Shown piece after piece: positions 35,533-63,997 of a DNA stretch of 64,000 bases. The notes below the pieces were generated by a model. The model had not been told where the DNA came from and ran no database searches. It saw nothing but the letters and a program-made list of their open reading frames with translations. Both the position numbers and the translations under genes were made by a program. How positions within the stretch are numbered: the stretch's first letter is position 1; each line of letters begins with the position of its first letter. Source of the DNA: Macrostomum lignano (lineage: Eukaryota); NCBI GenBank assembly GCA_002269645.1, contig NIVC01001101.1, forward strand, positions 310,001-374,000, written 5' to 3'.

Positions 35533-36513
35533 AGCAACTATAGTGCTGGTGCCTCTCGTCAAACAGCTGCGCTTATTATAATTGGATTATTATTAATTAA
35601 TCTTCCTTTCGACAGTCACAATGGTTTCCAGAATGGATACCGGTACACCAAGAAAGCTCATCAAGTGAAGCAGTCACTGGAAGCCAAGAAGCGCTCGGTA
35701 ATCCGCCACTAAGAGTCACCCTAATCCCTCGTTAATCCATCACTAAGAGTCACCCTAATCCCTCGTTAACCTTTTGGTAAACAAACCAGATAACACCACA
35801 AGATAACATTCACTCAAACAAGATAACATGCCCCATTCCGGTTATGCAAAATGTTCTCTTGTATGAATCCTGTTTGCGTGACGAAATCTTACGTTTCCTT
35901 TTTTCAAACAAGATTCAAATAGGATTCGCTGACCAGGTAACAGTCGGGTAATTCATGCGAATCCTGCAGGGAAACATCGTGTTATCCTGTTTGTTATCTT
36001 GTTTGTTATCTTGTTTGTTATCCTGTCTGACAAACAGGATTCGCTGACCAGGTAACAGTCGGGTAATTCATGCAAAAAAATCCGCCATTGACATCAAATT
36101 TCGCAGTAAAGAAGCGTATAAAAGGTTGGTGCTTCAAGATTTTGTGAGTAGCATCTATTTAACAGCGGGGTGTTATTTGTAAGCTCCTTATAGACGGTAG
36201 CTCAACAGGAACGAGAACTTCTGGAGAGCAGCGTGGCATACGTCTGAGTTTCGGGAGTTCAGTTACAAGTAGACCTACTTATACTGTGAATGCCAATGGA
36301 TACTACTGAATTGGTGATCTGCTGCGAGCTGGTGTACTCGCTGGCGAGGTCGGACCTGCTGTACTCGGACGCGACTCTGACGGCAGTCGACGCGTGAGCC
36401 AGACGTTTGTAAGATCGGGTCGCGCGCACGGAAGGCGATTAATGAGACCACTTGCATTATATGCCGGCGCAATGGAACGACTCTGCATTATAAAGTTAAA
36501 TTAAATGGTGATG

Positions 36514-36994
36514 AGTAGTAGGGCGAATTATGATACTGCCGCACTAGCACTGGCGAGATAGGCGGCAATGCAAATGTACAGGGAAAAATACACTGCGGAG
36601 ATATGAGCCCTATCTCTGTGCATTGGGGACGGCTAAGCACTGCAGAGATATGAGCCCTATCTCTGTGCATTGGGGACGGCTAAGCACTGCAGAGATATGA
36701 GCCCTATCTCTGTGCATTGGGGACGGCTAAGCACTGCAGAGATATGAGCTCTATCTCTGTGCATTGGGGACGGCTAAGCACTGCAGAGATATGAGCTCTA
36801 TCTCTGTGCATTGGGGACGGCTAAGCACTGCAGAGATATGAGCTCTATCTCTGTGCATTGGGGACGGCTAAGCACTGCAGAGATATGAGCTCTATCTCTG
36901 TGCATTGGGGACGGCTAAGCACTGCAGAGATATGAGCTCTATCTCTGTGCATTGGGGACGGCTAAGCACTGCAGAGATATGAGCTCTATCTCTG
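36514..36994 (+). repeat. Polinton left TIR with 47-bp hairpin-containing tandem array (~9 units)
   Basis: Unit GCACTGCAGAGATATGAGC(C/T)CTATCTCTGTGCATTGGGGACGGCTAA. Confidence 0.93.
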
Positions 36995-37242
36995 CTTAAC
37001 ACTGGAGTGATAGGAGGAGAGGCGGCCTATCTCTTTACACTGGAGATGGTTAACACTGCAGAGATAGGAGGAGAGGCGGCCTATCTCTTTGCATTGGGGG
37101 TGGTTAACACTGCAGAGATAGGATGGAGTGGGTTAGCTTAGCTGAATGAATGTTAATCTATGTAATTGGAAATAATGTTTGCGAAAGAGCCAATCACAGA
37201 GCCCGGAGTGGGATGGGTGGTTTGGGGTGGTTCGGTCGAGGG

Positions 37243-37250
37243 TATATAAG
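37243..37250 (+). promoter_or_regulatory. TATA box (TATATAAG) upstream of PC4-like ORF
   Basis: ~105 bp before ATG 37355; same octamer precedes two other element ORFs. Confidence 0.55.
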
Positions 37251-37354
37251 CCCCGAAATTGACAAGAAAGAATTCTCAATTTTTCAAATCCAAAATTTCA
37301 TCCGAACTTTTCCTCAGCTTTTAACTTTTGTGAGTTTTCAATTGCGAAAGGAAA

Positions 37355-38122
37355 ATGGACATCTGTGAAGGCTATAAAACACAAGTCCAGGAGTTTGAAG
37401 GACAAAAATTTATCGCTATTCGCAAGTTTTACCGACACGGCAGCACGGCAAGTCTGAAGCCAGGCGTCCCAGGATTCAACCTGAATGTTCACCAATGGAA
37501 GAAATTGAAGGAGGTGAAACGCTCACTTGTGATTTCTGCACGCAACAACGAGCCCAAGGTCGTGAAACTCGGCTTCGATAAGTTTGTGGAAGTCAAAGGC
37601 GGCATCATTTGGCTCAAACGGCTGCCGGAAGATTGCTGCGAGGAGTTTTTGAGACGAAACGCCGTACCACTGACTCCGCCGCTGTGGCAGAAGCTCTGGA
37701 AAATCGCCTCCTGGATCGACGGTCAGCTGGTGGCTCCCTTGAGGAACTCAATGCAGTACGAGCTGGAGTCTGATGAGGAAGAGGAGGAAGAGGACAAGAA
37801 GCTCAAGTTGGAGGCTGACCAGGACACGAAGCCCATAATGGAGACTGATGAGGGCGGAGAGCATGCTGATGACGAGGACGTTAGCTCGCCCACAAGGCCG
37901 CGCATTGTGACTGAGCCAATCACATCCACACCGATACCTTTGGTTGATTCTGATGCTGGACTGCTTCCGCAGCGGGACACCAACCTTGAGGAAGATCCGG
38001 TGTGGTATCAGTTCAGGGCGCATGCAGCGGCTTCGACGGTGAGCAGCAGGAAGCGAAAGCTGCCATTTCAACTTCGTCGGCAGGACGCGATGAGGCTGCC
38101 CAATGTTCGCTTTGATAACTGA
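37355..38122 (+). CDS. Tandem PC4/Sub1-like (ssDNA-binding/coactivator) domain protein with acidic tail
   Basis: VQEFEGQKFIAIRKFY...KPG..GFNLNVHQWKKLKE aligns to PC4 VRDFKGKVLIDIREYW...KPGRKGISLNPEQWSQLKE; second degenerate repeat KLGFDKFVEV...LTPPLWQKL...ID; RKRK NLS-like. Confidence 0.8.
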   Translation: MDICEGYKTQVQEFEGQKFIAIRKFYRHGSTASLKPGVPGFNLNVHQWKKLKEVKRSLVISARNNEPKVVKLGFDKFVEVKGGIIWLKRLPEDCCEEFLRRNAVPLTPPLWQKLWKIASWIDGQLVAPLRNSMQYELESDEEEEEEDKKLKLEADQDTKPIMETDEGGEHADDEDVSSPTRPRIVTEPITSTPIPLVDSDAGLLPQRDTNLEEDPVWYQFRAHAAASTVSSRKRKLPFQLRRQDAMRLPNVRFDN

Positions 38123-38448
38123 ACAGCTAGAATGCTTTGAATGCATTGGACTAACTAAATTACTTTTAGCTTGCACATGATTATCCAGCCTATATCTGAC
38201 GGCACTATGCTGTTTTTTATCTCTGCTATTTCTGAAATGCTGGTGTGCGAGTGTTTTAGTGTTCGTTTTTATGGATTGTTTGCTTTCGGAAAATACACCG
38301 ACTGTTACGATGTTAGAGGTTTCAATCTGACAGTAATAAATTAATTTGCCACTCGTTTCTCTATCATTTAATTGGAATATAAATTTCTACTTAAGAAAAA
38401 ATACTGTACAGCTAGAGCAGGTGGATAGGCACGTATCTTGATAAACCC

Positions 38449-39519
38449 ATGATGGAGAAAATTTATTTGAAACCTGAGCAACCGGCTAGTTTTTCTTGTG
38501 CCTCAAAGTTGCTGCATGAAGTGAGGCAAAGAGGTGATCGAATATCTGCAAAGAGCATTGAGCAGTGGCTCAGCGAGCAGCCAGTGCACACTCTGCACAA
38601 GCCAGCTAGGAGGCGATATCCAAGGGCCCCAATCATAGTGCGCGCAATCGATGATCAGTGGGAACTTGACTTAGTGGAAATGATTCCATTTGCAAAGCAT
38701 AATAAAGGCTACAAATATATTCTCACATGCATTGACGTGCTCTCAAAATGTGCTTGGGCCAAGGCACTGAAAAATAAATCTGCTGCAGAAGTGAAGTCAG
38801 CATTCGAGAGCATACTGAGAAGTTCAAAGCGACAGCCGCGCACAGTTCGCACAGATCAGGGGAAGGAATTTATCAACTCCACTTTCCGTCAATACTGCAT
38901 TGACAGAGGGATTCTGGCTTTCCCAACTAACAGCGAGCAGAAGGCGGCTGTCATTGAGCGATGGAATCGGACTCTGAAAAGTAGAATGTGGCGCTACTTC
39001 ACCTACAAGAGCACACTGCACTGGCTTGATGTGCTGCCTAAGCTGGTAAAATCCTACAACAATACCTACCACAGAAGCATCAAAATGGCACCCACTAGTG
39101 TCTGCAAAGAGAATGAATCTGAAGTGTGGATGAACCTGTACGACGGAAAAGCAGTCGAGACTCTAGAAAAATTAAGGAAGCCTAAATTCGCTGAAAACCA
39201 GTCAGTGAGAATTTCCAATGCTCCACGGCTATTCAAAAAGGGATACAAAGCGAGCTGGAGTGAGGAAGTGTACACCGTGGTGAGCAGAGCCCCAAAACAT
39301 TATCCCTACATGTACAAGATTAAAGACATGCGGGGGCAAGAGATTCGAGGACTCTTCCATGAGCACGAGCTGCAGGCTGTCCCGGACTCACAGCGGCTGT
39401 ATGTGATTGAGAAGATCCTGAAAACGGAGAAGCGGAAGGGAAAAATTCGCTATCTGGTGAAATGAGCGGGCTACGACTCGACTGGCTGGGTGGATGAAAA
39501 AGACTTAAGAAAGGTTTAG
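38449..39519 (+). CDS. Polinton retroviral-like integrase with C-terminal chromodomain (TGA at 39463-39465)
   Basis: WELDLVEM, RTDQGKEF, IERWNRTLK (DDE intact); YVIEKIL...YLVK*AGY...WV...DL continues past the stop to TAG 39517-39519. Confidence 0.93.
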
Positions 39520-39556
39520 CTTTGGCACATCCCTCATCTTGAAGTTTATCATTATA

Positions 39557-40361
39557 ATGCGAACTATTTTGATTAACAGTGAGCATGCTGAAGGTACTCC
39601 TAGTGACTTTAATTTTTACCTGCCTTCACCTATTTACTTGGATCGAAATGTGGACTATGAGGCAGGTCTGGCTGAAATCCATCTGCCTGCTGCATGGTTC
39701 AATGTTGACGAGCCTTACTGCTTCACTGTCTCAGATGGAAGAGAGCATGAGGCCCTGGTTCTTCAACCCGGACGCTTTGCTAGAGTGGAGGAGCTGGTGG
39801 AGCGCCTGAATGAGCTGCTGGCCAACTCTGATTCGCTGTTCTTTGATGCAATGAGTGACAGGGAGTCTGAGATGGAGGCTGATGAGTCCGGCCTGATGGG
39901 GCGTAGTGGCAACAGGGAATTCGGTATGAAGTTCGGACAACTCACGAACTGTGGTGCACAACAACACTGCGAGAGCAGAGCTGTTTCTTCCATCTAGTAA
40001 AATTCTGCATTGGCTGGGATTTGGAAACCAGGCTGTGAAAATCCAGCCAGGGAGCCGCGTGTCCGAGCATTGCATTGGCTGCCCGCGCACCAGCTTAATC
40101 AATGTGCACTGCAGTATCGTTGAGTCAACTAATTGCAACTGGAGCTCCTTGTTGAGAACAGTTGGAATGAAAGCCGGCATTGAATGGGGCAACTATCAAA
40201 CAAAAATATTTAAGAAAACAATATTCTTCCCGATTCAACGAATCAGTCTTCTTCACAGCATTCGAGTTCAGCTGCGTGACATCTATGGTTGCCCACTGAT
40301 TGCACAGACTCACAGCCCTGTTCTGCTTACAGTTCAACTTCAGGAGAAACGCATTCAATGA
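39557..40361 (+). CDS. Minor capsid (penton-like) protein, frameshifted near 39900-39960
   Basis: N-terminal PSDFNFYLPSPIYL...YEAGLAEIHLP and C-terminal VHCSIVE...LLRTV...IRVQLRD..G.P...VLLTVQL match the Polinton mCP pattern. Confidence 0.78.
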
Positions 40362-40708
40362 ACTACCAGCAGCTAATCCAGCAATATTCGGGGGTGAGGA
40401 CAGGACACGAAAAGCCTGCACTCTATGGCTGTGGGAGCTTCCCAGGGATCATGACATACCAGCCTCCGCCAGCGGCTATATCATCATCATCAGCCTCGAC
40501 GCTTAGCAACGTCAGGCGCAAAAGAAATACTGAAGCAAGTCCGAAACGATTGAAGAAAAAGAAGGGCACCCGAAAGGCAACTGGTGGAAATCGCAGTAAG
40601 AGGTCGAGCAAGGCTAGTGGGAAAAAGCTTAAGAATAGGAAGACGAAAGCAAAGAAGAATAGAGCAGGCGGAGGAAAGCGAAAGCAAAAGTCAGCAAGAA
40701 AACTGTGA
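40358..40708 (+). CDS. Small Lys/Arg-rich protein, candidate virion core protein
   Basis: ATGA overlap with mCP stop; LYGCG motif; strongly basic C-terminal half. Confidence 0.6.
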   Translation: MNYQQLIQQYSGVRTGHEKPALYGCGSFPGIMTYQPPPAAISSSSASTLSNVRRKRNTEASPKRLKKKKGTRKATGGNRSKRSSKASGKKLKNRKTKAKKNRAGGGKRKQKSARKL

Positions 40709-40736
40709 AACGCGTGCTCGACTCTCTGTCATAGAC

Positions 40737-42015
40737 ATGGCTTACGGATTCAATCCCAGACTTGATTTATTTAAGACGCCCGTTCTACAAACCTGCATTG
40801 AAAAAGCTACTTATGTTGATATTCACCCAGTTAATTCCATTGTTGCAAACTCTCCCATTGAATTTGACTGCCACCAATCTGCCGATGAATACACAGATCT
40901 GCTGAATTCTTTTCTTTATATTCGCTGCCGCCTTGTGAGACTGGATGGGGGTTTGCTGAGGGAGGATGTTCGAGATGGAGATGGCATCATCACCGAGCGC
41001 AGAGACAGTGACGTGCACCCAGAAAATTTTGTTCTGTCTACAGCCTTCTCAGATGTAATTGTGAGCATTAACCAGCGAGTGGTGTCTGGTGGAGACCAGC
41101 TCTATCCCTACCATGCGTACTTCAAAGCACTAATGAGCTCATCCGATGCCCAGCAACTAAAACTTTACCCTGCTGGCTTCCTGGAGCCGAACTCGGCAGC
41201 TGAAGAGCACACGGAGAGCCACAGGGAATCCCAATGGATGGAGTATGCGGGGCCGCTCTTCAGCGATGTTTTCCAGTGCCCAGTGTTTCTGCTAAGCAAT
41301 CTGCACCTGCACATCAAACTGGTCCCAGCGATGGGGCCTTTGCCATCAGAACCCGAATGCAAACAACGCGGCATACCGAATGGAAATCTCTCACAGCATT
41401 CTGCATCTTCGCCGAGTCAAAGTGATGCCCCACATCAGCCTGGCCCATGAGCAGGGGCTGACAAACCAAAATGCACTGTATCCCATCGAGCGAACTGAAA
41501 TGCAGAACTTCATCCTACCCCAGGGCATTCAGTCAAAAACATTGAAGGATTCACTCATGGAAAATTGCCGAAGTTTATCATGCTGGCCTTCGTGAGCCAC
41601 CGAGCATTCAACGGTCATCATCACGCGAGCCCGTTCCAGTTCCAGAGCTTCAACCTTAGCCGATTGGCTCTAAAGAAAGGTGGGGAAACCGTGTGCCACG
41701 GCGCCTTCACACCTGAAAACAATTCCTTTGTAAGAGAATACTTGCACTACCTGAAAAGCTGTCAATCTGCAAGCCACACAACTCGGTTCCGTGGATCCCC
41801 TACCAGCTCTTCTCCAACAAAAACACGGTGTTTGCATTCGATCTCACACCAGAGGGAGCGGCTCTGTGGTACGGACAGAAGGAGGGCAACCTGCGGCTGG
41901 AGATTCGCTTCCAACAGGCTCTGAATGAAGCGGTGTCCTGATTGCTATGTGCCTGTATGACTCACTGATTGAGGTCACCAAGCACCGAGAGCTTTTGCTG
42001 GACTATTCATCTTAA
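40737..42015 (+). CDS. Major capsid protein (double jelly-roll, PY-type), several frameshifts (~41331, ~41535, ~41790, ~41940)
   Basis: LDLFKTP.LQT.IEK..YV.I.P...PIEF...Y.DL.NS.LY; LRRVKV; LPKFIMLAFV...AFNG...PF.F; FAFDLTP...GNLRLEIRF. Confidence 0.86.
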
Positions 42016-42020
42016 TTGAC

Positions 42021-42533
42021 ATGGATGCAATTCAACTACTTAATCTCGCCAGAAAATTTTTGCCTTACCAAAAATTTCTCATAGTTACTTTACATTTGCG
42101 CTATAAAAATTCTCTGCCCTTGAATGTAAAAAGAAAATTTAGATCATCAATTTCCTTTGAAAACAAGTTTGTTTTTGTCCTACTTCAGCACAATGGCTCA
42201 TTTGGTCACTGGGTGGTGTGCTATGTTGGGCAAGGAAATCGCATTGAGTTGTTCAACTCCCTCGGCTGGGAACCTGAAATTTTATCTTTGGTTTATAATT
42301 TGTTTCGAGAGATTAAAACAACTGGCTTTTGGCTCCGAAGCAATATAAACAGAGTTCAATGTGCTAACTCTAATAAATGCGGAGTGTTTTGCATCTATTT
42401 TGCTTATCAAAAGTTTCTGTTCAATCGGTCATTTGAGGGGATTTTGAAGCATTTGCATGCTAATGAAAAAAATCATTTGAATGATAGAATCTTACAGAGG
42501 TTTGAAGCCAACTTAAGAAAAAGATGTCCGTGA
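42021..42533 (+). CDS. Adenain-like cysteine (maturation) protease
   Basis: GHW, LFNSLG, VQ....KCG.FC.YF motifs in clan CE order. Confidence 0.86.
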   Translation: MDAIQLLNLARKFLPYQKFLIVTLHLRYKNSLPLNVKRKFRSSISFENKFVFVLLQHNGSFGHWVVCYVGQGNRIELFNSLGWEPEILSLVYNLFREIKTTGFWLRSNINRVQCANSNKCGVFCIYFAYQKFLFNRSFEGILKHLHANEKNHLNDRILQRFEANLRKRCP

Positions 42534-43294
42534 TTTCTAATATTTATGCATTAAACATGGGAGAAAAGCAAGTTTGCTACGATATCCGCCTCAGGCAGGG
42601 AAGCTGCATGATTGTCTGCGGGCCCACCAATGCAGGAAAAACAACCTTTGTCAAACACCTGATCCAGTACAGAGACGTCATGTTTGATGTGAAGCCTGGC
42701 AGAGTTCTGTGGTACTATGGGATCTCACAGGCAGGCCATGCAGAACTGAGCAGCCTAGGTGTGCAGCTGCGCCAGGGATTTCCCACCAACATCGAGGCAG
42801 CACTTAGGCCCAATGACCTGGTTGTTTTCGATGACTTAATAGAGGAAACTTCAAACTCTGCTTCAATGCGAAATTTTTTCACAGGAATCGCACATCACTT
42901 GCCGTGCTTTTTGGTGATGCTGACTCAGAATATATTTTTCAAGGGAAAAGAGTCGCGAACAATGAGCTTGAATGTAATGTATTTAGCTATCTTGAAAAAC
43001 CCCAGAGACCAGCTGCAGATTGCAGCACTGGGCAGGCAGTGCTTTACAGAGAAGCCCGGCTTTCTGCTGTCAGTGTTCAAGCACGTGACCGCGCAGGGCA
43101 GGGGAGCTACCTGTTCCTGATTTCACCCATCAACTCCCGATGAGCTGCGAGTGCGGGCCAGAATTTTGCCCAACCAGCGACCCCATCTTGTATTTGAAAG
43201 TGAAAGTGAAGCTTGTTTTTATCAGCTATTGTTTTCATCGCTATGGAAGTGCTTGATTCACATGCAAGTTTTTTGCGGTTCTTGCGTCACCTAA
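42524..43294 (+). CDS. Packaging ATPase (A32/FtsK-like), C-terminus disrupted near 43100-43130 (end approximate)
   Basis: Walker A GPTNAGKT, Walker B LVVFDDL, AHH...LTQN, SRT.SLN..Y....NPRD; distal HPSTPDELRVR. Confidence 0.92.
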
Positions 43295-43580
43295 ATATAC
43301 CGTGCGCTTCAAGCGGCTGTTGATAAAAAATTGTCCAAAAGAAGTGCGTTATTTTCTTGTCGAGGCCTGCCATAATCTCTTACAAAACAATCTATCGTTT
43401 TCGCTCGATGAAAAAGCTGTTCTTGCAAAGTCAAAAGAGATAATTCGAAAAATTACTCACAAAAGAAGAAAGACAGACTTGTTGAAGGCTGGCTTCATCA
43501 AAATACTCCCGATTCTGCTTAAGCTGGTAAAGAAGAAGAAGCAAAATGAACAAATTTTCAGAAATGGTTCTGATTCCTAA
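43243..43580 (+). CDS. Small Polinton hypothetical protein, one frameshift near 43300
   Basis: ATG 43243 frame shifts into VRFKRLL..C...LVEACHNLL...IRKI...RK..L.KAGFIKILPILLKLV; located between ATPase and next ORF. Confidence 0.55.
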
Positions 43581-44166
43581 AGCAGAGTATGAGATGTTGA
43601 TGCAGAATTTGAAGCCAAATGAGACTACCACTGAAGCTGACTTGAAGCAGGCTCAGAAGAAATGCGATGACATCTTGTATGCCGAGGATTGTCCAGAAGA
43701 TGTGAAAACCGCCATGTACCAAAGTGCAATGCAAAGTTTGCTGGCCAAGCGCAAGCACGCTGGAAAAGAAGGAGCACGCAATACTGAAGCCAAGTTGATG
43801 AAAACAGAGACACCCCAGATGAACACCTGGGAAGAGAAGATCAGCAAGTCGGTGCCACAGAAATTCAAAACCAGGGCTCGCAGTCTGTGGACGATCCTGT
43901 CCACCAATCCAGAGCTGATTCGAGTTTGTGAAAACGGGGAGGTGGAAATCGCAGGCACGTCAATCCCTTCCTCAAACATACTGGACTTGATTCAGCACGC
44001 AGTGAGGGATTCGCCATGTGAGCGTGAACCAGTTGGGTGGAACGAGTTCATCGATTTTCTGCAGCAGAAAAAGCTTAATGTTCCGCTTTCCGCTATTGGT
44101 AAATCAGTTAAGAAGAAAATGGCAACCAGCAGAGGGGTGAACTGGAGAAAGAACAGGAGAGTCTAG
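43546..44166 (+). CDS. Conserved Polinton hypothetical protein (206 aa)
   Basis: Intact ORF; GEVEIAGTSIPSSNILDLI...PVGWNEF...NVP pattern recalled from animal Polinton ORFs. Confidence 0.7.
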   Translation: MNKFSEMVLIPKAEYEMLMQNLKPNETTTEADLKQAQKKCDDILYAEDCPEDVKTAMYQSAMQSLLAKRKHAGKEGARNTEAKLMKTETPQMNTWEEKISKSVPQKFKTRARSLWTILSTNPELIRVCENGEVEIAGTSIPSSNILDLIQHAVRDSPCEREPVGWNEFIDFLQQKKLNVPLSAIGKSVKKKMATSRGVNWRKNRRV

Positions 44167-44217
44167 TCAAGGGGTACGGGAGCAACACAGCCTGGCTGAA
44201 ACTGCCTGCCAGAAAAG

Positions 44218-44225
44218 TATATAAG
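44218..44225 (+). promoter_or_regulatory. TATA box (TATATAAG) upstream of nuclease-like/TBP-like pair
   Basis: ~42 bp before ATG 44267. Confidence 0.5.
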
Positions 44226-44266
44226 AAGGTGGACTGACTCCGAAATTTTCGAAGGAAAGCTGCATC

Positions 44267-44700
44267 ATGAACTACATTGACTTCCAAGGATTCCGTGCAA
44301 CAGCACAAGCAAAAAATTTGTTGTGAAGGAGTTGGCAGTTGTTCAAATCAGAGCGGGGAGCTACCGCATTGCTCACCATGTGTACGCACCTCCGTATCCA
44401 TGGGAGAGAGTCTCACCTGACATGCGAGTTTACTACAGACAGCTATCTAAGAGTCTGCACCAGTTTAAGTGGAATGATGGAACCCGTCCGTACATGGAAC
44501 TGGCGGAAGACATTCTGAGCATTGCCAGTGGTCCGATCTGGTCAAATGGGGAAAGGAAGTCGATTTTCTGACTGAGCTGCTTGGAAGACAGGTTTATAAC
44601 CTAGAAGATTTGGGAGCACCCTCGACTGAAGATTCAGATACTGGCTGTGCAGTGAGAAATTCGTTGCTGCACTACAGTTGGCTTAAGCCAAAGTTCTGCA
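44267..44700 (+). CDS. DEDD/DnaQ-fold-like protein, two frameshifts (~44315, ~44550)
   Basis: Reconstructed MNYIDFQGF...FVVKELAV...H..APPYPW...H.F.WNDG..PY...VYNLEDLGAP...CAVRN. Confidence 0.55.
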
Positions 44701-44784
44701 TCAACTTAAGAAGCGAGCAGTGTCCGTGGCACACGAGCAGTAAAGTTGGCAGAAGCAGATTTGGTGAAGAAGTTGACGATCGAA

Positions 44785-45357
44785 ATGAGCCCACCAGCTA
44801 CAGCCCTAAGAGTGACCAATCTGGTTGGCGGAGTAGATCTGAGACTGGATGGTGGCAGGGGCGCTCAGCTGCCTCTACGGGAACTGGCTCTCAGCATGGC
44901 TCATGTGATCTACCGGCCCGTCTGGCCCCGGGTGCTCATCAAGCGGATGCGAAGTCCCAGAGTGACTCTGCTACTCTACCCTACTGGGCAACTGAGCATC
45001 TGCGGTGCCAAGACCCACGCAGACGCCAAAAGGGCTGCCCGTCGCTTCGTGGCTATGCTGCATCGGAGAGTGCCGGCTCAACTGCTGCCTCATCAAACAA
45101 TTTGTGTTCGAATTAAAACTATTACTGCTCATGGACAGCTCCCAGTTCATTCCGCACTTTCCTTATTAATGTTAAAATCAATTATCCCAAACGCCGAATA
45201 TGAACCAGAATCCTTTTCTGCTTTAATTTTCAATTTAAACTTTTGTAAATGTCTGCTTTTTCACAGCGGCTCTTTTGTTCTCAGTAGAGCTCGGTCCTTG
45301 AATCAGTTGCATACCGATAGCATGCGTCTACTCAATGTAGTTCTTTCCATTGAATAA
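44785..45357 (+). CDS. TATA-binding protein (TBP)-like protein, 190 aa, intact (possible TTG start at 44746)
   Basis: Two TBP repeats: VTNLVG..L...YRP.WP.VLI.R.RSPRVTLLLYPTGQL.I.GAKT..DA..AARRF and YEPESFSALIF...KCLLFHSGSFVL..A. Confidence 0.9.
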   Translation: MSPPATALRVTNLVGGVDLRLDGGRGAQLPLRELALSMAHVIYRPVWPRVLIKRMRSPRVTLLLYPTGQLSICGAKTHADAKRAARRFVAMLHRRVPAQLLPHQTICVRIKTITAHGQLPVHSALSLLMLKSIIPNAEYEPESFSALIFNLNFCKCLLFHSGSFVLSRARSLNQLHTDSMRLLNVVLSIE

Positions 45358-45938
45358 AAATAAAAGTCAAGTCAAGCAATTTGCCGCAAATATTTCAATG
45401 ATTAGTGAAAAGTGAATAAAAGGATAAACTTAGTATTCTTTACATTCATTTTCCCAGGCAGACAGCTATGGAACACTTCAAAAACGTATTTAGCCCATCA
45501 CCAAAAGTATCGCAAAACGCATATCAAATCCGAAAGTAAACAATACTACCATCGTTATAACAAACGATGTGCACCGAGAGAAGAGAAATAGAAAAGTGAT
45601 AGAGAAAATATGATTAAAACGCTGATTGAATTTACAGGAACAATTTATGTCAGATAAAAACCAAAAACACATTTTAAACAAGTAGTACACAAAGCAAACA
45701 AAAATGAATTAATATTGTATGAGCGCACTTGCCACAGCTTTATAAAAAGTAAAACTTAAATTGATATCAATATTTCACGCCGCAAAAACAAATTGACAGC
45801 TAAATCTAGCGCAATTAGCCAAGCATACAAATTTGTAAAAGTTACTACATGCAAGTCACTACATTTAAAACAGAATTTGGCAATTTAAACAACTCTAAAA
45901 GCAAGAAAAAGTACTAAACAGTCTGTTAAACACCCGCA

Positions 45939-48900
45939 CTAGACCAGTCGGATGCGCTTCAGCTGATCGTGGGATGCGGGCGTCAGCGCATAGTGTCCGT
46001 AGGGCAGGCTTCGATTACTGCTAAGCCACACTCGCTTATCCTCCCACACCGATAGGCTTCTTTTCTCCATGACCGACGTGAAGATTTCGTGTTTCTTGGA
46101 AACAATCGCTGTCATGGCAACCATCTGCTCTTGCTTGGACTCGAACGCGTCGACATAGTTCGCATGCGAAATTTGCTGTCTTACTACTGACTGCTTCACG
46201 CCTTTGGCAGTTTTCTTGATCTTTGCACTCGAATTCTCGGCAGGGAGAAACGAATAAAGTTTTGGACGCAAAAGAATCCACTCCTGGTAAATTCCACCAG
46301 CAGATTCATCTTTAACGCAGCCCAAGCTTTCCTTTTAACTCTTCAGAGAAATGCGGATGGTCTCGAGAAATAGTTGGATGTGTCAAGTATTTTTCCTCTC
46401 TAAGCTTCGGGATTACCGTCCGATGTTAAATCACGATTCTTGAAAGCTAGAAAAATGAGTCAGTATCACCTCCGCAAAAGCATCATGTCTCTGGAACCGT
46501 CTGAATGACAGAACAGCGGTCGGAGCCTGTCATATAGTGGCTGTACATGGCCATCTTAGAGAGATCGAGAACTGCCTGGCCAACGAAAATGGCCTTGTCA
46601 GCGTGACTTTATCTTTTTTGAGCTGAAAAATGCTCACGACTCATTGATAATCGAGAATGCGGCACAGTTTGGTCGAGAGGCGCAAGTTTCTGCTTGAGTC
46701 TGGTTAGTGCAAATTCGAACATCGCATCTTTTTCGAACGTTCTCCATAGTTTTTCCAAAGAGAGAATTGTTTTTCAATTTGTAAAAATCCTTAGCAAACT
46801 CGGAAGTTGCCAAAGCTCTTTTTCATTGTTGCTGGCAATGTACGGCGCGAAAATATTTTCCTGCTTGAACGAAATCATTTTTTGACGCACTTGATCCGCA
46901 TTCCGTGTTGCAGGTAAAATCTTAAAACGGTGCTGTGAACTACGTAAGAAATCCTTGTCGGTACAGGTGAGTAGAAGCTTCTCCGTTGCTTGAAACTTAG
47001 CTTCAGCATTGCCAGTTCGCTGTTCAGCAATCTCTTTCCATAGTTCGGCCATGTACGGCGAGAATTGATCTGGCTGTGGTTTTGATTTTTCAGGTGCAAA
47101 CGGTAACTCCTGAGTCGAATCGTGAATCTCAGCTGGGTATTCTAGATCGAGTTGAACAAGGTAGGCGATCTCGGCTTCTGGATTGAGTGACAGAAACCGA
47201 TTGGAGTCCCAGAACTGGATTTTCCTGTTCCGGTACCCACCTGAATTCCCTGCATGGAAGCGGAAGGCGAAGGGCAAAGCCATACAAGTTGTTCATATCG
47301 ATCGGCATGAGGCTTACACTCTCTTGCTGATCATCATAACTGGCAAGCTAGGATTATTACTTTGACGCAAATGCACATTAATGAAGGACATGCCTCCTCG
47401 TATTCGCTTCTCAACAGATGATACATGTCAGCATCAGTCAGCTGCTCTAGAACCACTCCAGTCGACTTTAGAGCTGAGTCGTAAGACAAAACCAGGAGTA
47501 GTAAAGTAGTGTACCGGATCCAATCCGTCTCCTTTCAGACTGGCCTGTCGGAATGTCTCAAAAATGGTCAGCCAGCTGCCTTACATCCATTTCAAGATAG
47601 CGAGCATATAATCCTTCAAACTTTTGCATTGAAATGCCGCCCATGCCGCTCTTGCTCTATTGTAGTCGTCGTCGGAAATTCCCCTATCGGAAAGTCGATT
47701 AAAAAAAGCATCTTTAGGTGGCAAAACCGACTGCTCGAGAATCTCAAATCCTGTGAGGTAATCATATGGGAAAATCCCTTTTTTTCGAAGTAGCTCTCTT
47801 GAAAGATGTGGTCTTGACTCAAGCATTTGCATTGTCAGCTTGCATTCAGCTTCGGGAAGATTAGCAAACAAATTGGACAAACTTCCCTTCAAAAAGCAGA
47901 GCGAGTCGATGAACTGAATTGTAAACATGATTGGCACAACTTTTCCGTTCTTTACGTAACTTGCAACAGGGAATTCCGCCCTTAGTGACAAGTATCGCTC
48001 GGATGATTGCGGAACAACACTAAGTTTCCAATTTTTCATGCTCCCAAGCGCAGTGGAAAGTAGAAGATGAAGGTCGTAGCCGCCTAAGTTGTGAAAAACC
48101 AGGGGCAGAAACCGGCGTCGGAGCTGTGCTCGCAGGTTGCATTCTTGACATGCTGCACCTTTGTACTGTCCATTTAAATGATCGTGGTCAAAATGTTTAT
48201 CTGTAGAACTTTTAAAGTTCTTCTTGCAGTAGTGACATACCTCAGCAGAATTGAAATCATCCATGACGGTCGCGGATGATCGGTCAGCCGGCTGGTGGCT
48301 ATGCTTCTGGTTCCAGTGAAATATATCCTGAGCCAGGCTTTCAAGAGATTTGAGAAAACCAAGGATACACTCATCAGGGTCCGCATTGCAAAAGACCTTG
48401 TACATGTCTCCTTCTGGCCTAAGCGGAGGTCCTGTCATGCCTTCACGAGGCACTGCAAGAAAAGCTGCTGCACATGGTTCATGCTTTGAGATCAGGTTAG
48501 CAGGGTCTGTGTTCGCTCGCAAAATGGCTTCCAGGTCGGCATAGGCAACGAATGGTGGACTGACAGTGTTTTGACAGTTTCGGAACTTTATTTCATTCTG
48601 TCCTGGAACTGGAAGCGTTTCTTTGACAGGATTTTCTGCAGTAATGCTGCATTCGTTCCTGTGCTCTTGAAGCCTCTCGTTGCTATAAAATGATGTTAAA
48701 CATTTCGTGCACCACTTCCTCATGGCGGGACCATTACGACTGTTCATTAACCTGTCAAAATTAGTAATTGCACACCAGTGCTCCGATCCGTAGCTGTCTT
48801 TAACTAGCAAAAGCATGAGGTGTCTTCGGTCATCTGACTCATGCTTGCGGCGACGGAGAAGAGTCACACTGCCCTGCTGCCAAGAGAACGCAGAAATGCA

Positions 48901-49577
48901 AATTCCTGGATTGTTAGACTCGACGCGATCGATATCAGCGACACTCACTGGCATGGAGATTTCTGCAAAGTCCAGCTCACGCAACCATTCATCGTAAGAG
49001 GATATTCTGTTGGGCGATTTCTGAACTTTCGGATCGGCGCTGTGCAGTGCAGCGAGACAGGCGTACAGGAAACAGTCTTTGCCTGTGCTCGGTGGATTGA
49101 TAACAGCCTTTTTGTTCTTCAAACTGGCAGGAAGATTGAATCTAACGGCTCTGCCCTGGCGAAATCGAATTGGATTGTACCTGGCAAGGTTGATGTCTAG
49201 AAAATTAATTTGTTTAATTGTCCAGCCACTGCCGTTCGTATTAATCATACTACAGATCCTCTCCAACTCCTGCTCCTGCTCAATCAACCAGTTGTTTAAA
49301 CGGCCTGCTTCACCACCTAGGTCTAGGGCCTGCATTTTACAGCTTATCCATCTGTCCTCTTCGGCAAGCATCTCCCCATCTCTTATTCGGACCATTCGAA
49401 TATTCGCCTTTAGCTGAACTTTGTAATGATGTCTTGAAATTCTTTGCTGAACTGCCTCAATAATTTTGTCTCCAGCTTGGACAAAAAATTCTGACGGAAG
49501 CGTGTCTGGGTGACTCGATCTGAGCCTCAGTATTTCCAGTGATTGATCATAGGCTTGGGCAACTCTGCTGAAGCTGA
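45939..49577 (-). CDS. Protein-primed family B DNA polymerase (pPolB) with EndoVII-like insert, many frameshifts in 46330-47580
   Basis: GSGW; CF....AALH; YADLE; CHYC...DHDH.NG.Y.G..C..CN; FHNLGGYD; FIDS; KGIFPYDY; IRGG; DMNNLYG; KNNSLFGKTMENVRKR; GDTDS; RPKLY; AKGV; DKR...SLPYGHY. Confidence 0.93.
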
Positions 49578-49818
49578 CTGTTGAACCTGGTTTGTGGTTT
49601 TAGGATAATATTTTTGTTTTTTGCTGCCTATAGTTTCAAATATCAAAGATACTAAACTAAACGTCTGTACCCAAGCATACATGTACAACCCTACCGGTAT
49701 AAAGTCTTTTATCTCCCCTTCTCCCATTCTTTGGACTAAAATTTTAGACTGCATAATATACATCGCATTGATAAGAAAATTTTTAAGTAAGTTGAAAAGG
49801 ATAAATAAAGGCACTTAC

Positions 49819-50254
49819 CTTGGTGTGCATCAGTCACCGACTCGCTGTTGGCTGCTGACTCGCTGCTGGCTGCTGACTCGCTGCTGGCTGCTGACTCGCT
49901 GCTGGCTGCTGACTCGCTGCTGGCTGCTGACTCGCTGCTGGCTGCTGACTCGCTGCTGGCTGCTGACTCGCTGCTGGCTGCCGACTCGCTGCTGGCTGCC
50001 GACTCGCTGCTGGCTGCCGACTCGCTGCTGGCTGCTGACTCGCTGCTGACGTCATGGTCCACCCAAGGGTGGTCATACTCGATCCACGAGTGGTCATCCT
50101 CCATCCACGAGTGGCCATTCTCCATCCACGAGTGGTCATTCTCCATCCATGAGTGGTCATTCTCCATCCATGAGTGGTCATTCTCCATCCATGAGTGGTC
50201 ATTCTCCATCCATGAGTGGTCATTCTCCTGCTCCATCCAGGAGTGCTCAACCAT
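49819..50254 (-). CDS. Repeat-rich exon (MENDHSW and SSESAA repeats), probable 5' exon of pPolB
   Basis: AG|GTAAGT donor at 49818; phase-1 acceptors at 49578 or 49587 join in frame with pPolB. Confidence 0.5.
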
Positions 50255-51141
50255 AGAAAAGGCAAGCAGTTAAAAGCTGACAGTGTTTACTGGCTGCAAC
50301 TGAGTGTCATAAGCAACTGGGAGTGAATATTGGAAATCTTTTTCGTAAGTCTTTATTGCTGCAATACTGGTACAATATCCACACTTACAAGCTAGTAGAT
50401 GCTGGTTATATTTTTTTGGTTCTCCCTTAAGCTAGCTCTCTGCATGCATATTCTATTGATCCCTATTCGTAAAAGTTCGTTTCTATTTGCCTCCTACGCA
50501 GACTCAATCGGTAAAAAATGCAAAATGAAGCCAATAGTTAATTAACAAACCAATCACCGAGTGGAAAAATGCTGACATTATATATATATATATATTTTTT
50601 TAAAAATTATCGAATTCACATGGTGCAATCATAGTCAATAAACAATGCATGGAACAATGAATTACAAATACAGACGAGAGTTTAGAAGCAGAAATATAGC
50701 TGAAAAGTTCAATAATTAAAGAATGAGGAAACACCGCGTCAAAGCAGTAGAAAGAAAATTATACCTAATCAATCGCACCAAGCATACGAAACCATCACCA
50801 ATTTATTGAAAGTATGTTATGTTGATTTTAATTTGTTAAATTCAACTGTATAATGTTTCACCTACTTTTCAAATAATTTTTTTTACCTCGGATACCAAAA
50901 AAATATTGGTTGCCACTACGAGCTACGAGCTTTTTTTAAAACTAATTTGGAAATGAAAACTGAAAACTTATAAGCAAGATTCCTAGAAGCGAATACAGAG
51001 TTATGAGATGATCAAATCATTAATTAATGTACCTACTTCAACTTTAAAAAGCTAGTTGAAATAAAGTTTTAGCAATAATTGCAATAAATGGGTAGATTTC
51101 TCACTCCACACAGAAAGCAAAAAAGTACAAAAATTGCTTAG

Positions 51142-52464
51142 TCACAGCGGCACAATTCTAATACGATTTTCGAAAATCGTTACCTCGTACCCAGCCCCGC
51201 CGACAGGAGGCAGAAAGAAGGCAACTCCAGCTGGCACGGGTGGAGTTTCGGATTGAGAAGCTGGAATTGTAGAGGCTGCAGCTGGGGCGGCTGGAGCAGC
51301 TGGGGCAGCCAGAGCAGCTGGGGCGGCTGGAGCAGCTGGGGCGGCCAGAGCAGCTGGGGCGGCCAGAGCAGCTGGGGCGGCCAGAGCAGCTGGGGCGGCT
51401 GGAGCAGCTGGGGCGGCCAGAGCAGCTGGGGCGGACAGAGCAGCTGGGGCGGCCAGAGCAGCTGGGGCGGCCAGAGCAGCTGGGGCGGCTGGAGCAGCTG
51501 GGGCGGCCGGAGCAGCTGGGGCGGACAGAGCAGCTGGGGCGGCCAGAGCAGCTGGGGCGGCCAGAGCAGCTGGGGCGGCCAGAGCAGCTGGGGCGGCTGG
51601 AGCTGCAGGTGGCACAATTGCATTATGCGACTCATTGTCGCTGCCCTCCTCTTCTAGGATTTCCATTTCGTGGTCGTCTTCAATTAGATGAAGTTGTTTT
51701 CCAGCAATCACCGGAACCGAAGAGACAGGTTGCTGCTGCTGCTGACCAGCGTTGAATTCCCTGAGGAACTGATCCAGGACATCTTCCTCTATGAAGTTTA
51801 TGACAGCAGCAGCCTCGACTCCAGCAGCCTCGACTCCAGCAGCCTCGACTCCAGCAGCCTCGACTCCAGCAGCCTCGACTCCAGCAGCCTCGACTCCAGC
51901 AGCCTCGACTCCAGCAGCCTCGACTCCAGCAGCCTCGACTCCAGCAGCCTCGACTCCAGCAGCCTCGACTCCAGCAGCCTCGACTCCAGCAGCCTCGACT
52001 CCAGCAGCCTCGACTCCAGCAGCCTCGACTCCAGCAGCCTCGACTCCAGCAGACAGCTCAACTTCAAATTCTGCAGCTGCTGAAGACCCGCTTGGCCTCA
52101 TCCTCTTCAATGTAGAGTCAATTACTTGACTCAAGTGAGCTGATAGCAGACTCCTGCTGGCTCCCTTTTTCTGCTGGATCTTCTTTTCTCTCTCGTTGCT
52201 CTTTTTGATGGCGCGGATTACTTTCCAGCGGTTACTTTCTTGCTTTTTCTTGTCATCGCTGACGATCCTGTGTCCTCGATGATATGCTGGAATTTTTCCC
52301 TCCTGCAGAGCTTCGACGGTGCCGCACTGGTCGCATGCCAACCAGCATGAGACCAGACAGTTCTCATTCTCGTGGTGTCTTGGGGACACGCCTCCAAGCA
52401 GGCACACTTCGCAGCTTATACAGACCTCATAGAGGTCTCTATGACAACTTTTAAAAGTTTTCAT
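51142..52464 (-). CDS. 440-aa protein with Cys/His-rich N-terminus and AAGVE / AAPAAL repeat tracts
   Basis: Intact ORF with ATG; CxxCxxC, C...CxxC, H..H; TATATAAG on the same strand ~103 bp upstream. Confidence 0.65.
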   Translation of the reverse strand: MKTFKSCHRDLYEVCISCEVCLLGGVSPRHHENENCLVSCWLACDQCGTVEALQEGKIPAYHRGHRIVSDDKKKQESNRWKVIRAIKKSNEREKKIQQKKGASRSLLSAHLSQVIDSTLKRMRPSGSSAAAEFEVELSAGVEAAGVEAAGVEAAGVEAAGVEAAGVEAAGVEAAGVEAAGVEAAGVEAAGVEAAGVEAAGVEAAGVEAAGVEAAGVEAAAVINFIEEDVLDQFLREFNAGQQQQQPVSSVPVIAGKQLHLIEDDHEMEILEEEGSDNESHNAIVPPAAPAAPAALAAPAALAAPAALAAPAALSAPAAPAAPAAPAAPAALAAPAALAAPAALSAPAALAAPAAPAAPAALAAPAALAAPAALAAPAAPAAPAALAAPAAPAAPAAASTIPASQSETPPVPAGVAFFLPPVGGAGYEVTIFENRIRIVPL

Positions 52465-52566
52465 TTTGAAAGAGAAAGAGTTGTTTTTTAGAAGTAGTAA
52501 GGTTTTTAAAAATCCTTTTATACAATTTTGTTTTTGTCTATTTGTTTATTTGTACTTGCGTGGCTG

Positions 52567-52574
52567 CTTATATA
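52567..52574 (-). promoter_or_regulatory. TATA box (TATATAAG) upstream of 440-aa ORF
   Basis: CTTATATA on plus strand, mirror position to the left-end box. Confidence 0.5.
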
Positions 52575-52924
52575 GTAATTTGTACATGCATGCCCTCTCC
52601 TTATCATATCGTATATGAACATCCAGCCATGCTCAGGTAATAATTACTTTACCGTTATAGAGGCCACCGGCTGTAATTAGTGTATCCCCCCGTCCCCTTA
52701 TCCAGGTAAGCAACACCAGCCGTCCTCTGTGCAGTTGTAAAACTTTATAACCTTACCCTAACACAGAGCACAGAGATTGGCCACCCCTCTTATCTCTGCA
52801 ATGTTTAGCCGTTCCCAATGCACAGAGATAGGATCCTCTCCGCAGTGTATTTTTCCTATATCCTTTTTGCCGCCTATCTCGCCAGTGCTAGTGCGGCAGT
52901 ATCATGAATCGCCTCTATCTCCGC

Positions 52925-53287
52925 AGTGCTTAGCCGTCCCCAATGCACAGAGATAGAGCTCATATCTCTGCAGTGCCTAGCCGTCCCCAATGCACAGAGA
53001 TAGAGCTCATATCTCTGCAGTGCTTAGCCGTCCCCAATGCACAGAGATAGAGCTCATATCTCTGCAGTGCTTAGCCGTCCCCAATGCACAGAGATAGAGC
53101 TCATATCTCTGCAGTGCTTAGCCGTCCCCAATGCACAGAGATAGGGCTCATATCTCTGCAGTGCTTAGCCGTCCCCAATGCACAGAGATAGGGCTCATAT
53201 CTCCGCAGTGTATTTTTCCCTGTACATTTGCATTGCCGCCTATCTCGCCAGTGCTAGTGCGGCAGTATCATAATTCGCCCTACTACT
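52925..53287 (-). repeat. Polinton right TIR with 47-bp array (~6 units)
   Basis: Reverse complement of 36514-~36876, nearly identical. Confidence 0.93.

Positions 53288-59127: not shown

Positions 59128-63997
<4,870 letters not shown>

What the first reader, a model, noticed from the sequence alone, without database searches (positions are those of the whole stretch)
36514..53287. Complete, apparently young Polinton with full virion module
Seen: canonical termini, exact 6-bp TSD, TIRs identical over the outer part, and all core genes in compact overlapping order (ATGA overlap at 40358; 10-nt overlap at 42524). Established: these are Polinton/Maverick hallmarks and imply capacity for virions. 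The accessory set here is atypical.
Basis: partly seen in the sequence, partly recalled or inferred. Interest (0 to 1): 0.7.

Follow-up and report, generated by a model that had tools for sequence, protein, structure and literature searches.

The report
Flatworm Polinton carrying TBP-like gene
A real, recently inserted virus-like element in a flatworm genome has all the usual capsid and replication genes, several of them broken in this sequence, and unusually carries its own copy of a basic transcription factor.

Summary
The element is real: 36,514-53,287 (16,774 bp), AGTAGT//ACTACT ends, exact 6-bp target duplication, 372-nt inverted repeats 99% alike, both gene overlaps as stated. The host is Macrostomum lignano or very close. 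All nine standard Maverick/Polinton genes are present, and the capsid family folds as a double jelly-roll.

'Complete' holds for gene content only. Six of nine core genes are interrupted here: polymerase 12-16 frameshifts, major capsid 4-5, penton 1, integrase one stop, ATPase and PM by inspection. The breaks are clustered, come with almost no stop codons and do not lower protein identity. Long-read consensus error is more likely than decay (about 0.65), but this is unproven, so virion capacity of this copy is not shown.

The unusual part is the accessory set: a divergent TBP-like gene (TBP fold, DNA-contact aromatics and TFIIB-binding glutamates kept, conserved in ~70%-identical relatives, present in a second M. 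lignano copy) and a PC4-like gene. Exact TATA boxes precede three accessory units but not the virion block. The best model is an endogenous polintovirus whose TBP-like protein helps transcribe its late genes. That step is inference.

The parts
36508..36513 (.). Left 6-bp target-site duplication (GTGATG)
36514..36885 (+). Left TIR; starts (AGT)2; contains a 47-bp tandem array (36591-36994, 8.6 copies) that runs past the TIR
37243..37250 (+). TATA box (TATATAAG) 112 nt before the PC4-like ORF
37355..38122 (+). PC4-like protein (255 aa, open); ssDNA-binding/coactivator domain plus acidic tail
   Evidence: Pfam PC4 E 1.6e-7; human PC4 structures E 1e-4 to 6e-4
38449..39519 (+). Retroviral-type integrase, D-D-E motifs present; in-frame stop at 39463-65 cuts the last ~17 codons
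   Evidence: Pfam rve E 2.8e-13
39557..40361 (+). Penton / minor capsid (PX)-like gene, one break near 39,940
   Evidence: 58% identity over all 269 aa of intact homologue P0171; motifs match the published PX alignment by eye; position one gene before MCP; no fold test
40358..40708 (+). PW-like basic core protein (116 aa, 28% K+R, open)
   Evidence: synteny with vertebrate Mavericks; composition; no family hit
40737..42012 (+). Major capsid protein (PY), 4-5 frameshifts between ~41,330 and ~41,940
   Evidence: 59% to P0016; model of P0016 family pLDDT 92, double jelly-roll hits PBCV-1, Sputnik, mavirus
42021..42533 (+). Adenain/Ulp1-like maturation protease (170 aa, open); His and Cys motifs present, the third triad position looks substituted relative to homologue P0156
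   Evidence: Pfam Peptidase_C5 E 9.6e-5; triad reading recalled
42524..43240 (+). Packaging ATPase (Walker A/B and downstream motifs), reading frame broken near 43,100-43,130
   Evidence: co-occurs with MCP in homologue P0106; A32/FtsK type by recalled motifs and synteny
43243..43580 (+). PM-like small basic gene, one break near 43,280
   Evidence: synteny atp-pm-pz; three-frame reading; no family hit
43546..44166 (+). PZ-like conserved ORF (206 aa, open)
   Evidence: 40% to a region of moth Polinton gene model P0150, 64% to M. lignano P0168; synteny
44218..44225 (+). TATA box 49 nt before the exonuclease-like/TBP unit
44267..44800 (+). Exonuclease-like ORF (DEDD-type motif recalled, untested), two breaks
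   Evidence: no Pfam or PHROG hit
44785..45357 (+). Divergent TBP-like protein (190 aa, open); poly(A) signal at its stop
   Evidence: Pfam TBP E 2e-24; Z 20, rmsd 2.0-2.1 to archaeal and human TBP at 24-27% identity; relatives
45939..49586 (-). Protein-primed PolB with vOTU Cys/His motifs, EndoVII/HNH insertion, exonuclease and polymerase motifs; 12-16 frameshifts, all in ~46,320-47,600
49587..49818 (-). Predicted 232-nt intron (GTAAGT donor, CAG acceptor, 32% GC), phase-compatible with the pPolB frame
   Evidence: prediction only
49819..50254 (-). Repeat-rich acidic ORF (21- and 18-bp arrays), probable first coding exon of pPolB
51142..52464 (-). 440-aa accessory ORF: Cys-rich N-terminus, acidic stretch, 15- and 18-bp repeat arrays; no LxCxE motif
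52567..52574 (-). TATA box 110 nt before the 440-aa ORF
52787..52917 (-). Inner, 86%-identical second copy of the terminal sequence next to the right TIR
52916..53287 (-). Right TIR with 47-bp array (6.3 copies), ends (ACT)2
53288..53293 (.). Right 6-bp target-site duplication (GTGATG)

Best explanation
This is a recently integrated endogenous polintovirus (Maverick/Polinton, animal 'adintovirus' type) of a multi-copy Macrostomum family, and most of its frameshifts are residual long-read consensus errors. SHOWN: boundaries, TSD, nine core genes, double jelly-roll capsid family, TBP fold. FROM ESTABLISHED KNOWLEDGE: the rve integrase inserts the linear genome leaving a 6-bp duplication; pPolB with its terminal-protein/vOTU N-terminus copies it from the TIR ends; MCP, penton, protease and ATPase are the capsid-building set. 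INFERRED: three TATA-box units (PC4-like; exonuclease-like plus TBP-like; 440-aa ORF and probably the spliced pPolB) are early genes read by host Pol II. The TBP-like protein then binds non-canonical promoters and, through its retained TFIIB-binding glutamates, brings host TFIIB/Pol II to the TATA-less integrase-to-PZ virion block. PC4 would act as coactivator or as ssDNA-binding protein during strand-displacement replication. Confidence by step: Polinton identity 0.99; young insertion 0.9; breaks mostly artefactual 0.65; TBP-like protein functional in element transcription 0.55; specifically a late-gene activator 0.3.
For: Termini, TSD and TIR. Core genes. Artefact reading: all pPolB breaks fall in 1.3 of 3.6 aligned kb (P about 5e-6 if uniform, computed for n=15); 0-1 in-frame stops against 4-9 expected if substitutions outnumbered indels 5-10 to 1 (P 0.1 to 0.001); identity to homologues is not lower among the breaks (pPolB 53.5% vs 53.0% after them; MCP 60.0% vs 56.3% before them); 8 of 21 breaks are next to a run of 4 or more bases vs 18% background (P 0.024); published M. 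lignano assemblies are PacBio-based with 64% and 32% REAPR error-free bases (PMC5730564). A relative has both a whole 1281-aa pPolB and a whole 269-aa penton-like protein, each listed with a 14,411-bp longest contig (same contig is inference). TBP: four DNA-contact aromatic positions and both TFIIB-binding glutamates are kept in all 6 full-length relatives aligned (residue roles from PMC7221094, and recall). M. lignano gene model P0168 joins a PZ-like start (64%) to the TBP-like gene (89%), so a second, diverged copy has the same neighbours. PAA46374.1 comes from an RNA-seq-based annotation whose shared name prefix marks transcripts at least 95% alike. Exact TATATAAG occurs 3 times in the element, each 49-112 nt before a unit's first ORF.
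Against: Neighbouring host tandem units 2 and 3 differ by only 5 small indels in 8,570 columns, so this region is not generally noisy. The integrase stop is a substitution-type lesion. With a substitution:indel ratio of 3 the lack of stops is not significant (P 0.24-0.32). 13 of 21 breaks are not next to a long run. No shared late-promoter motif was found upstream of the 8 virion-block genes (null fraction at least 0.09 in all 8 tests). No TBP relative was listed with the 14,411-bp contig length, so the gene may not be needed family-wide. The window TBP differs from all 5 Logan relatives at one otherwise invariant second-lobe position, and the first aromatic aligns one residue off in the HMMER alignment. 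No expression, particle or read data were available.
Confidence: 0.6

Rival explanations
1. The copy is truly defective: a young insertion that is, or recombined with, a damaged element, mobilised in trans by intact siblings and unable to make particles itself.
For: 6 of 9 core genes interrupted; clean neighbouring host repeats; integrase stop; odd positions in protease and TBP; 96% of vertebrate Maverick copies are defective (PMC8097293); no M. lignano-named full-length pPolB among 10 longer hits.
Against: Break clustering, near absence of stops, undiminished protein identity and 99% TIR identity do not fit ordinary neutral decay.
Confidence: 0.3
2. The assembled element is a mosaic of reads from several sibling copies, so the breaks (concentrated in the most conserved parts of pPolB and MCP) come from mis-correction among paralogues and no single genomic copy has this interior.
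For: Breaks sit in the conserved polymerase core and the C-terminal half of MCP; a diverged sibling subfamily exists (P0168, P0005 at 64-90%); the host is a hidden polyploid with a repeat-rich genome.
Against: Matching TSD and TIRs show that the two ends belong to one insertion; no direct sign of a switch point.
Confidence: 0.2
3. The TBP-like gene is a decoy or passenger: it binds TATA DNA or titrates TFIIB, NC2 or Mot1 to dampen host transcription, or is cargo with no role in element expression.
For: No late-promoter motif found; no relative listed with the 14.4-kb contig; the element encodes no TFIIB of its own; Polintons often carry host-derived cargo (PMC11131425).
Against: Conservation of 69-70% with invariant DNA-contact positions across relatives argues against neutral cargo; the early/late-like promoter layout; viral TBP mimics are late activators in herpesviruses (PMC12529657 abstract).
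Confidence: 0.35

Closest known systems
Vertebrate Mavericks (Barreat & Katzourakis 2021, PMC8097293)
   Same: (AGT)2//(ACT)2 ends, 6-bp TSD, size 16.8 kb (their mean 16.9 kb), TIR 372 nt (their mean 402), gene blocks int-penton-pw-MCP-pro and atp-pm-pz.
   Different: Here atp-pm-pz follows pro on the same strand and only pPolB faces it; pPolB seems to have an intron (theirs are intronless); TBP-like, PC4-like and exonuclease-like accessory genes; not 'intact' as assembled.
Adintoviruses (Starrett et al. 2021, PMC8502044)
   Same: Animal polintovirus with OTU-bearing PolB, rve integrase, hexon, penton, adenain and packaging ATPase; Cys-rich acidic accessory ORF upstream of PolB, where their 'Oncoid' genes lie.
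   Different: No LxCxE motif in the upstream ORF; Alpha or Beta class unresolved; TBP appears in that paper only in the legend of Fig. [quoted passage not shown]
Nematode/oomycete pPolB2 Polintons with HNH insertion (Jeong et al. 2023, PMC10748475)
   Same: HNH-type (Pfam Endonuclease_7) domain inside pPolB.
   Different: That paper calls the HNH a nematode/oomycete trait within pPolB2. Here it is in a flatworm element and in 6 of 10 longer homologues. pPolB1 vs pPolB2 was not tested.
Viral TBP mimics (KSHV ORF24; giant-virus and poxvirus TBP-like proteins; PMC12529657, PMC7221094)
   Same: Divergent TBP fold in a dsDNA virus with DNA-contact aromatics kept; structural hits to viral TBPs.
   Different: A minimal 190-aa core in a 17-kb element; TFIIB-binding glutamates kept, whereas viral TBPs generally lose them; no viral TFIIB or Pol II-binding domain; closer in fold to cellular TBP (Z 20) than to the vaccinia factor (Z 7.2).

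Membership tests
Polinton/Maverick (Polintoviricetes) | TIRs with (AGT)2//(ACT)2 or (AG)3//(CT)3 ends | tested here: met
   definition
Polinton/Maverick (Polintoviricetes) | 6-bp target-site duplication | tested here: met
Polinton/Maverick (Polintoviricetes) | Protein-primed PolB gene (TP-vOTU-exo-palm) | tested here: met
   48.5% over 1172 columns to P0006, which hits PF03175; motifs; TP domain itself not modelled; gene interrupted
Polinton/Maverick (Polintoviricetes) | Retroviral-type (rve) integrase | tested here: met
   Pfam rve above cut-off, D-D-E motifs
Polinton/Maverick (Polintoviricetes) | Double jelly-roll major capsid protein | tested here: met
   fold of the 59%-identical homologue P0016; gene interrupted in the window
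Polinton/Maverick (Polintoviricetes) | Single jelly-roll penton (PX) | tested here: inconclusive
   Position, length and motif match by eye; no Pfam, PHROG or PDB hit; not folded
Polinton/Maverick (Polintoviricetes) | Adenain/Ulp1-like protease | tested here: met
   Pfam Peptidase_C5 above cut-off
Polinton/Maverick (Polintoviricetes) | A32/FtsK-like packaging ATPase | tested here: inconclusive
   P-loop ATPase shown and linked to MCP in P0106; subfamily rests on recalled motifs and synteny
'Intact' Maverick (PMC8097293 criterion) | All conserved ORFs uninterrupted, plus TIRs and TSD | tested here: not met
   6 of 9 core genes interrupted as assembled
Polintovirus with virions | Particles or free linear DNA | not testable with these tools
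   no reads or proteomes available
Alpha vs Beta adintovirus; pPolB1 vs pPolB2 | PolB class by phylogeny with reference sequences | tested here: inconclusive
   PF03175 weak (63.6 bits) in P0006 and absent in P0007 and P0008, which leans to the divergent class as defined; no named references on hand, no pPolB tree built
TBP family | Two-lobed saddle fold with DNA-contact aromatics and C-lobe acidic pair | tested here: met
   first aromatic position ambiguous by one residue
Viral late-gene TBP mimic | Binds viral late promoters and is needed for late transcription | not testable with these tools
   motif search negative

The most novel reading that the evidence does not exclude
A 17-kb animal polintovirus family that encodes its own TBP-like factor plus a PC4-like coactivator and uses them, with host TFIIB and Pol II, to run an early/late transcription switch. 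This would be a minimal, independently evolved counterpart of the herpesvirus and poxvirus TBP mimics, active and multi-copy in a transgenesis- and RNAi-tractable animal, where Polinton gene regulation and particle formation could be watched directly.
Probability: 0.3. Interest if true: 0.78.

Novelty: new variant of a known kind. Interest (0 to 1): 0.45.

Why it matters
Full-length Polintons with capsid genes are common in animals, so the element as such is ordinary. Two things raise it. First, how animal Polintons control gene expression is essentially unstudied, and a conserved TBP-like plus PC4-like pair with an early/late-like promoter layout gives a concrete, testable mechanism. My searches found TBP near this virus class only as a label in one figure legend, and no paper on Polintons in Macrostomum (open-access library only, bioRxiv supplements closed). 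Second, whether animal Mavericks make particles is a long-standing open question (PMC8097293), and M. lignano is a lab model. The case also warns that perfect termini do not prove intact genes.

Tried and rejected
Exact look-up: 0 of 10 window proteins are in the collection. MCP profile vs PDB sequences: 0 hits. P0171 vs PDB: 1 non-significant hit; vs P0156: no significant match; the penton fold stayed untested. PHROGs: 1 of 9 proteins hit, Walker A only. Rfam on 36,000-54,000: 0 hits. The outer TIR does not fold better than shuffles (z -0.94). No shared upstream motif for the 8 virion-block genes. No LxCxE in 6 of 6 ORFs scanned. No second copy of the element elsewhere in the window. The MCP tree (27 homologues chosen from 150 hits plus the window's N-terminal stretch, bootstrap not converged) groups it with P0016 and P0017 (100/99) but leaves deeper placement open. 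Rejected: host TBP or TRF2 gene (24-27% identity to all solved TBPs, intronless, inside the element); programmed frameshifting (too many sites); ordinary old fossil (TIR and TSD intact, no nested insertions, few stops). No complex prediction was run, because TBP-TFIIB is a textbook pair and no host TFIIB was available. Supplement searches: PMC8502044 (1 file) and PMC5730564 (3 files) gave 0 hits; figures and the .doc capsid file could not be seen.
Full report
1. Observation. The element runs from 36,514 to 53,287 (16,774 bp, 46% GC). It starts AGTAGT, ends ACTACT and is flanked on both sides by GTGATG. A chance 6-bp match has probability 2.6e-4. The inverted repeats are 372 nt and 99% complementary; the first 189 nt are identical and there are 3 mismatches in all. 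Each arm holds a 47-bp array, 8.6 copies on the left and 6.3 on the right, and the first mismatch coincides with a unit variant. The ATGA overlap at 40,358 and the 10-nt overlap at 42,524 are as stated.

2. Host. The ORF at 44,785 is 99% identical to PAA46374.1 of Macrostomum lignano, so the window is from that flatworm or a very close relative. I did not determine the assembly.

3. Gene content. Plus strand: PC4-like (Pfam E 1.6e-7), integrase (rve E 2.8e-13), penton-like, PW-like, MCP, protease (Peptidase_C5 E 9.6e-5), ATPase, PM-like, PZ-like, exonuclease-like, TBP-like (E 2e-24). Minus strand: a 440-aa Cys-rich, repeat-rich ORF, a repeat-rich ORF and pPolB with an Endonuclease VII domain (E 6e-6) (26 pieces scanned). 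The N-terminal half of MCP found 1,266 relatives at E up to 0.001. A 70-sequence model of the nearest whole one, P0016 (59% identical), has pLDDT 92 and matches double jelly-roll capsids of PBCV-1, Sputnik and mavirus. One relative is named after F54H12.2, which I recall as the C. elegans Polinton MCP. The penton-like gene has one relative, P0171 (269 aa, 58% over its whole length). Its motifs match the published PX alignment by eye (PMC4028283, supplement 3 part 1) and it lies one gene before MCP, as described there, but its fold was not tested. PW, PM and PZ are named by synteny with vertebrate Mavericks (PMC8097293 section 7); PZ also matches a moth Polinton gene model at 40%. The exonuclease label is recalled. 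Catalytic motifs of integrase, ATPase, vOTU, exonuclease and polymerase are all present.

4. The genes are not intact as assembled. Against whole natural homologues, MCP has 5 frameshifts (P0016) or 4 (P0017, P0018). pPolB has 16 plus 1 stop (P0006) or 12 plus 3 stops (P0007), all between about 46,320 and 47,600. The penton-like gene has 1. The integrase stops about 17 codons early. ATPase, PM and the exonuclease-like ORF change frame by three-frame reading, without a reference. So 6 of 9 core genes are interrupted; PW, protease and PZ are open. This fails the 'intact' criterion of PMC8097293.

5. Artefact or decay? For artefact: clustering (P about 5e-6 if uniform); 0-1 stops where 4-9 are expected at substitution:indel ratios of 5-10 (P 0.1-0.001; the ratios are assumed, and at ratio 3 the test is not significant); no drop in protein identity among the breaks; 8 of 21 breaks next to runs of 4 or more bases against 18% background (P 0.024); 99% TIR identity; and published assemblies of this species built from PacBio reads with 64% and 32% error-free bases by REAPR (PMC5730564 passages). 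Against: host tandem units 2 and 3 in the same window differ by only 5 small indels and 7 mismatches in 8,570 columns (unit 1 differs by a rearranged stretch and is not counted); the integrase lesion is a stop; and 13 of 21 breaks are not at long runs. I put artefact, including mis-correction among sibling copies, at about 0.65. A relative with whole pPolB and penton-like proteins exists, so the lineage has coding-competent members, but no intact M. lignano pPolB was among the 10 longer hits.

6. The accessory set. The 190-aa TBP-like protein folds as TBP (pLDDT 85; Z 20, rmsd about 2 A to archaeal and human TBP at 24-27% identity; Atlas 0.97 for the homologue P0001). It also matches viral TBPs structurally at 7-20% identity. 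The homologue search gave 5 hits among 295 candidates: two M. lignano entries and three unnamed clusters at 72-75%. In all 6 full-length relatives aligned, the four aromatic DNA-contact positions and the two C-lobe glutamates are kept. PMC7221094 (passages) identifies those glutamates as the TFIIB contact and reports that viral TBPs generally lose them; the aromatic assignments are from alignment and recall, and the first is ambiguous by one residue. The M. lignano gene model P0168 joins a PZ-like start (64%) to the TBP-like gene (89%), showing a second, diverged copy with the same neighbourhood. The NCBI record comes from an RNA-seq-guided annotation in which a shared prefix marks transcripts at least 95% alike. 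Its 'g17' suffix suggests many loci and transcription, but that is inference and multi-mapping is possible. Against a family-wide need, no TBP hit was listed with the 14,411-bp contig length of P0006 and P0171.

7. Layout. Exact TATATAAG occurs 7 times in the window against 1.3 expected. The 3 inside the element lie 112, 49 and 110 nt before the PC4-like ORF, the exonuclease-like/TBP unit and the 440-aa ORF. None precedes the integrase-to-PZ block, and no shared motif was found for that block. pPolB lacks an in-frame ATG over the start of its homology. A 232-nt AT-rich GT-AG interval at 49,818-49,587 is phase-compatible with the upstream repeat-rich ORF, so the gene is probably spliced. Phase agreement alone has a 1-in-3 chance, so this remains a prediction.

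8. Mechanism. Integration by the rve integrase, terminal-protein-primed copying by pPolB and capsid assembly by MCP, penton, protease and ATPase follow from established Polinton biology (PMC4028283, PMC11071308 passages). The inferred addition is a two-stage programme: host TBP reads the TATA units early, and the element's TBP-like protein with host TFIIB then drives the virion block, as herpesvirus TBP mimics drive late genes (PMC12529657 abstract). Rivals are a decoy or passenger TBP, a truly defective copy, and a mosaic assembly.

9. Novelty. It is a member of Polinton/Maverick on all features that could be decided; penton and ATPase subfamily are inconclusive, and 'intact' is not met. 'Polinton' plus 'TATA-binding protein' gave 5 papers; I read the passage in one, where TBP sits on mirusvirus-like elements, and saw the other four as listings only. 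PMC8502044 and its preprint list TBP in legends for MELD viruses and related elements, so there is a precedent in the wider class, and I could not see which element. 'PC4' plus 'Polinton' gave 1 irrelevant paper. 'Macrostomum' plus 'Polinton' gave 1 unrelated listing and plus 'Maverick' 0. Two 2026 preprints have no TBP mention in their main text (supplements closed). Coral polintoviruses carry VLTF3 (PMC11131425 passages), so Polinton-borne transcription factors of another kind are known. The HNH insertion has precedent in nematode and oomycete pPolB2 (PMC10748475 section 8) and is in 6 of 10 longer homologues here. PMC10468722 (passages) does not mention Polintons.

10. Verdict. A genuine young Polinton, ordinary in its core and not shown to be intact, with an unusual conserved TBP-like and PC4-like pair. 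Interest 0.45; new variant of a known kind; the most novel reading has probability 0.3 and interest 0.78.

Noticed in passing
window 35770-36513 and 53294-55636: The Polinton sits inside a ~3.1-kb element with ~40-nt inverted ends and 112-114-bp subterminal repeats, which itself interrupts the 34-bp satellite. Nested insertion order: satellite, then this element, then the Polinton.
   Followed up: partly
window 32228-33835: 1.6-kb element with 119-nt inverted repeats and an apparent 8-bp target duplication, inserted in the 33-bp satellite; the start of a THAP-like ORF suggests a P-element derivative (label recalled).
   Followed up: no
window 1-35,000: Three tandem ~11.1-11.7-kb host units, each with 34-, 17-, 53- and 33-bp satellites and a WSC-domain ORF (6346, 17803, 29483); units 2 and 3 are over 99.8% alike in the stretches compared. 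Another WSC ORF lies at 62,058-62,564 (-).
   Followed up: partly
window 34325-35572 (-): GC-rich Gypsy-like integrase fragment (H2C2 + rve, 415 aa open) bracketed by ~50-bp direct repeats at ~34,320 and ~35,487, with no RT seen next to it.
   Followed up: no
window 56107-57285 (-): Uninterrupted 392-aa calcineurin-like phosphoesterase ORF, PP1-like by recall, possibly a retrocopy.
   Followed up: no
window 52787-52917: A degenerate second copy of the Polinton terminus (86% over 138 nt) lies just inside the right TIR, making the two ends asymmetric.
   Followed up: partly
window 36591-36994 and 52916-53210: Each 47-bp TIR unit contains a palindromic core, a candidate protein-binding site; the left array runs on into 54-bp variants up to 37,128.
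   Followed up: no
window 37355-37740: The PC4-like ORF looks like two tandem PC4-type repeats before its acidic tail; only the first scores in Pfam.
   Followed up: no
P0001 Atlas result: The nearest feature clusters are 188-206-aa divergent TBP-like families, mostly eukaryotic (commonest Nematoda, Chordata); some might be element-borne TBPs in other animals.
   Followed up: no
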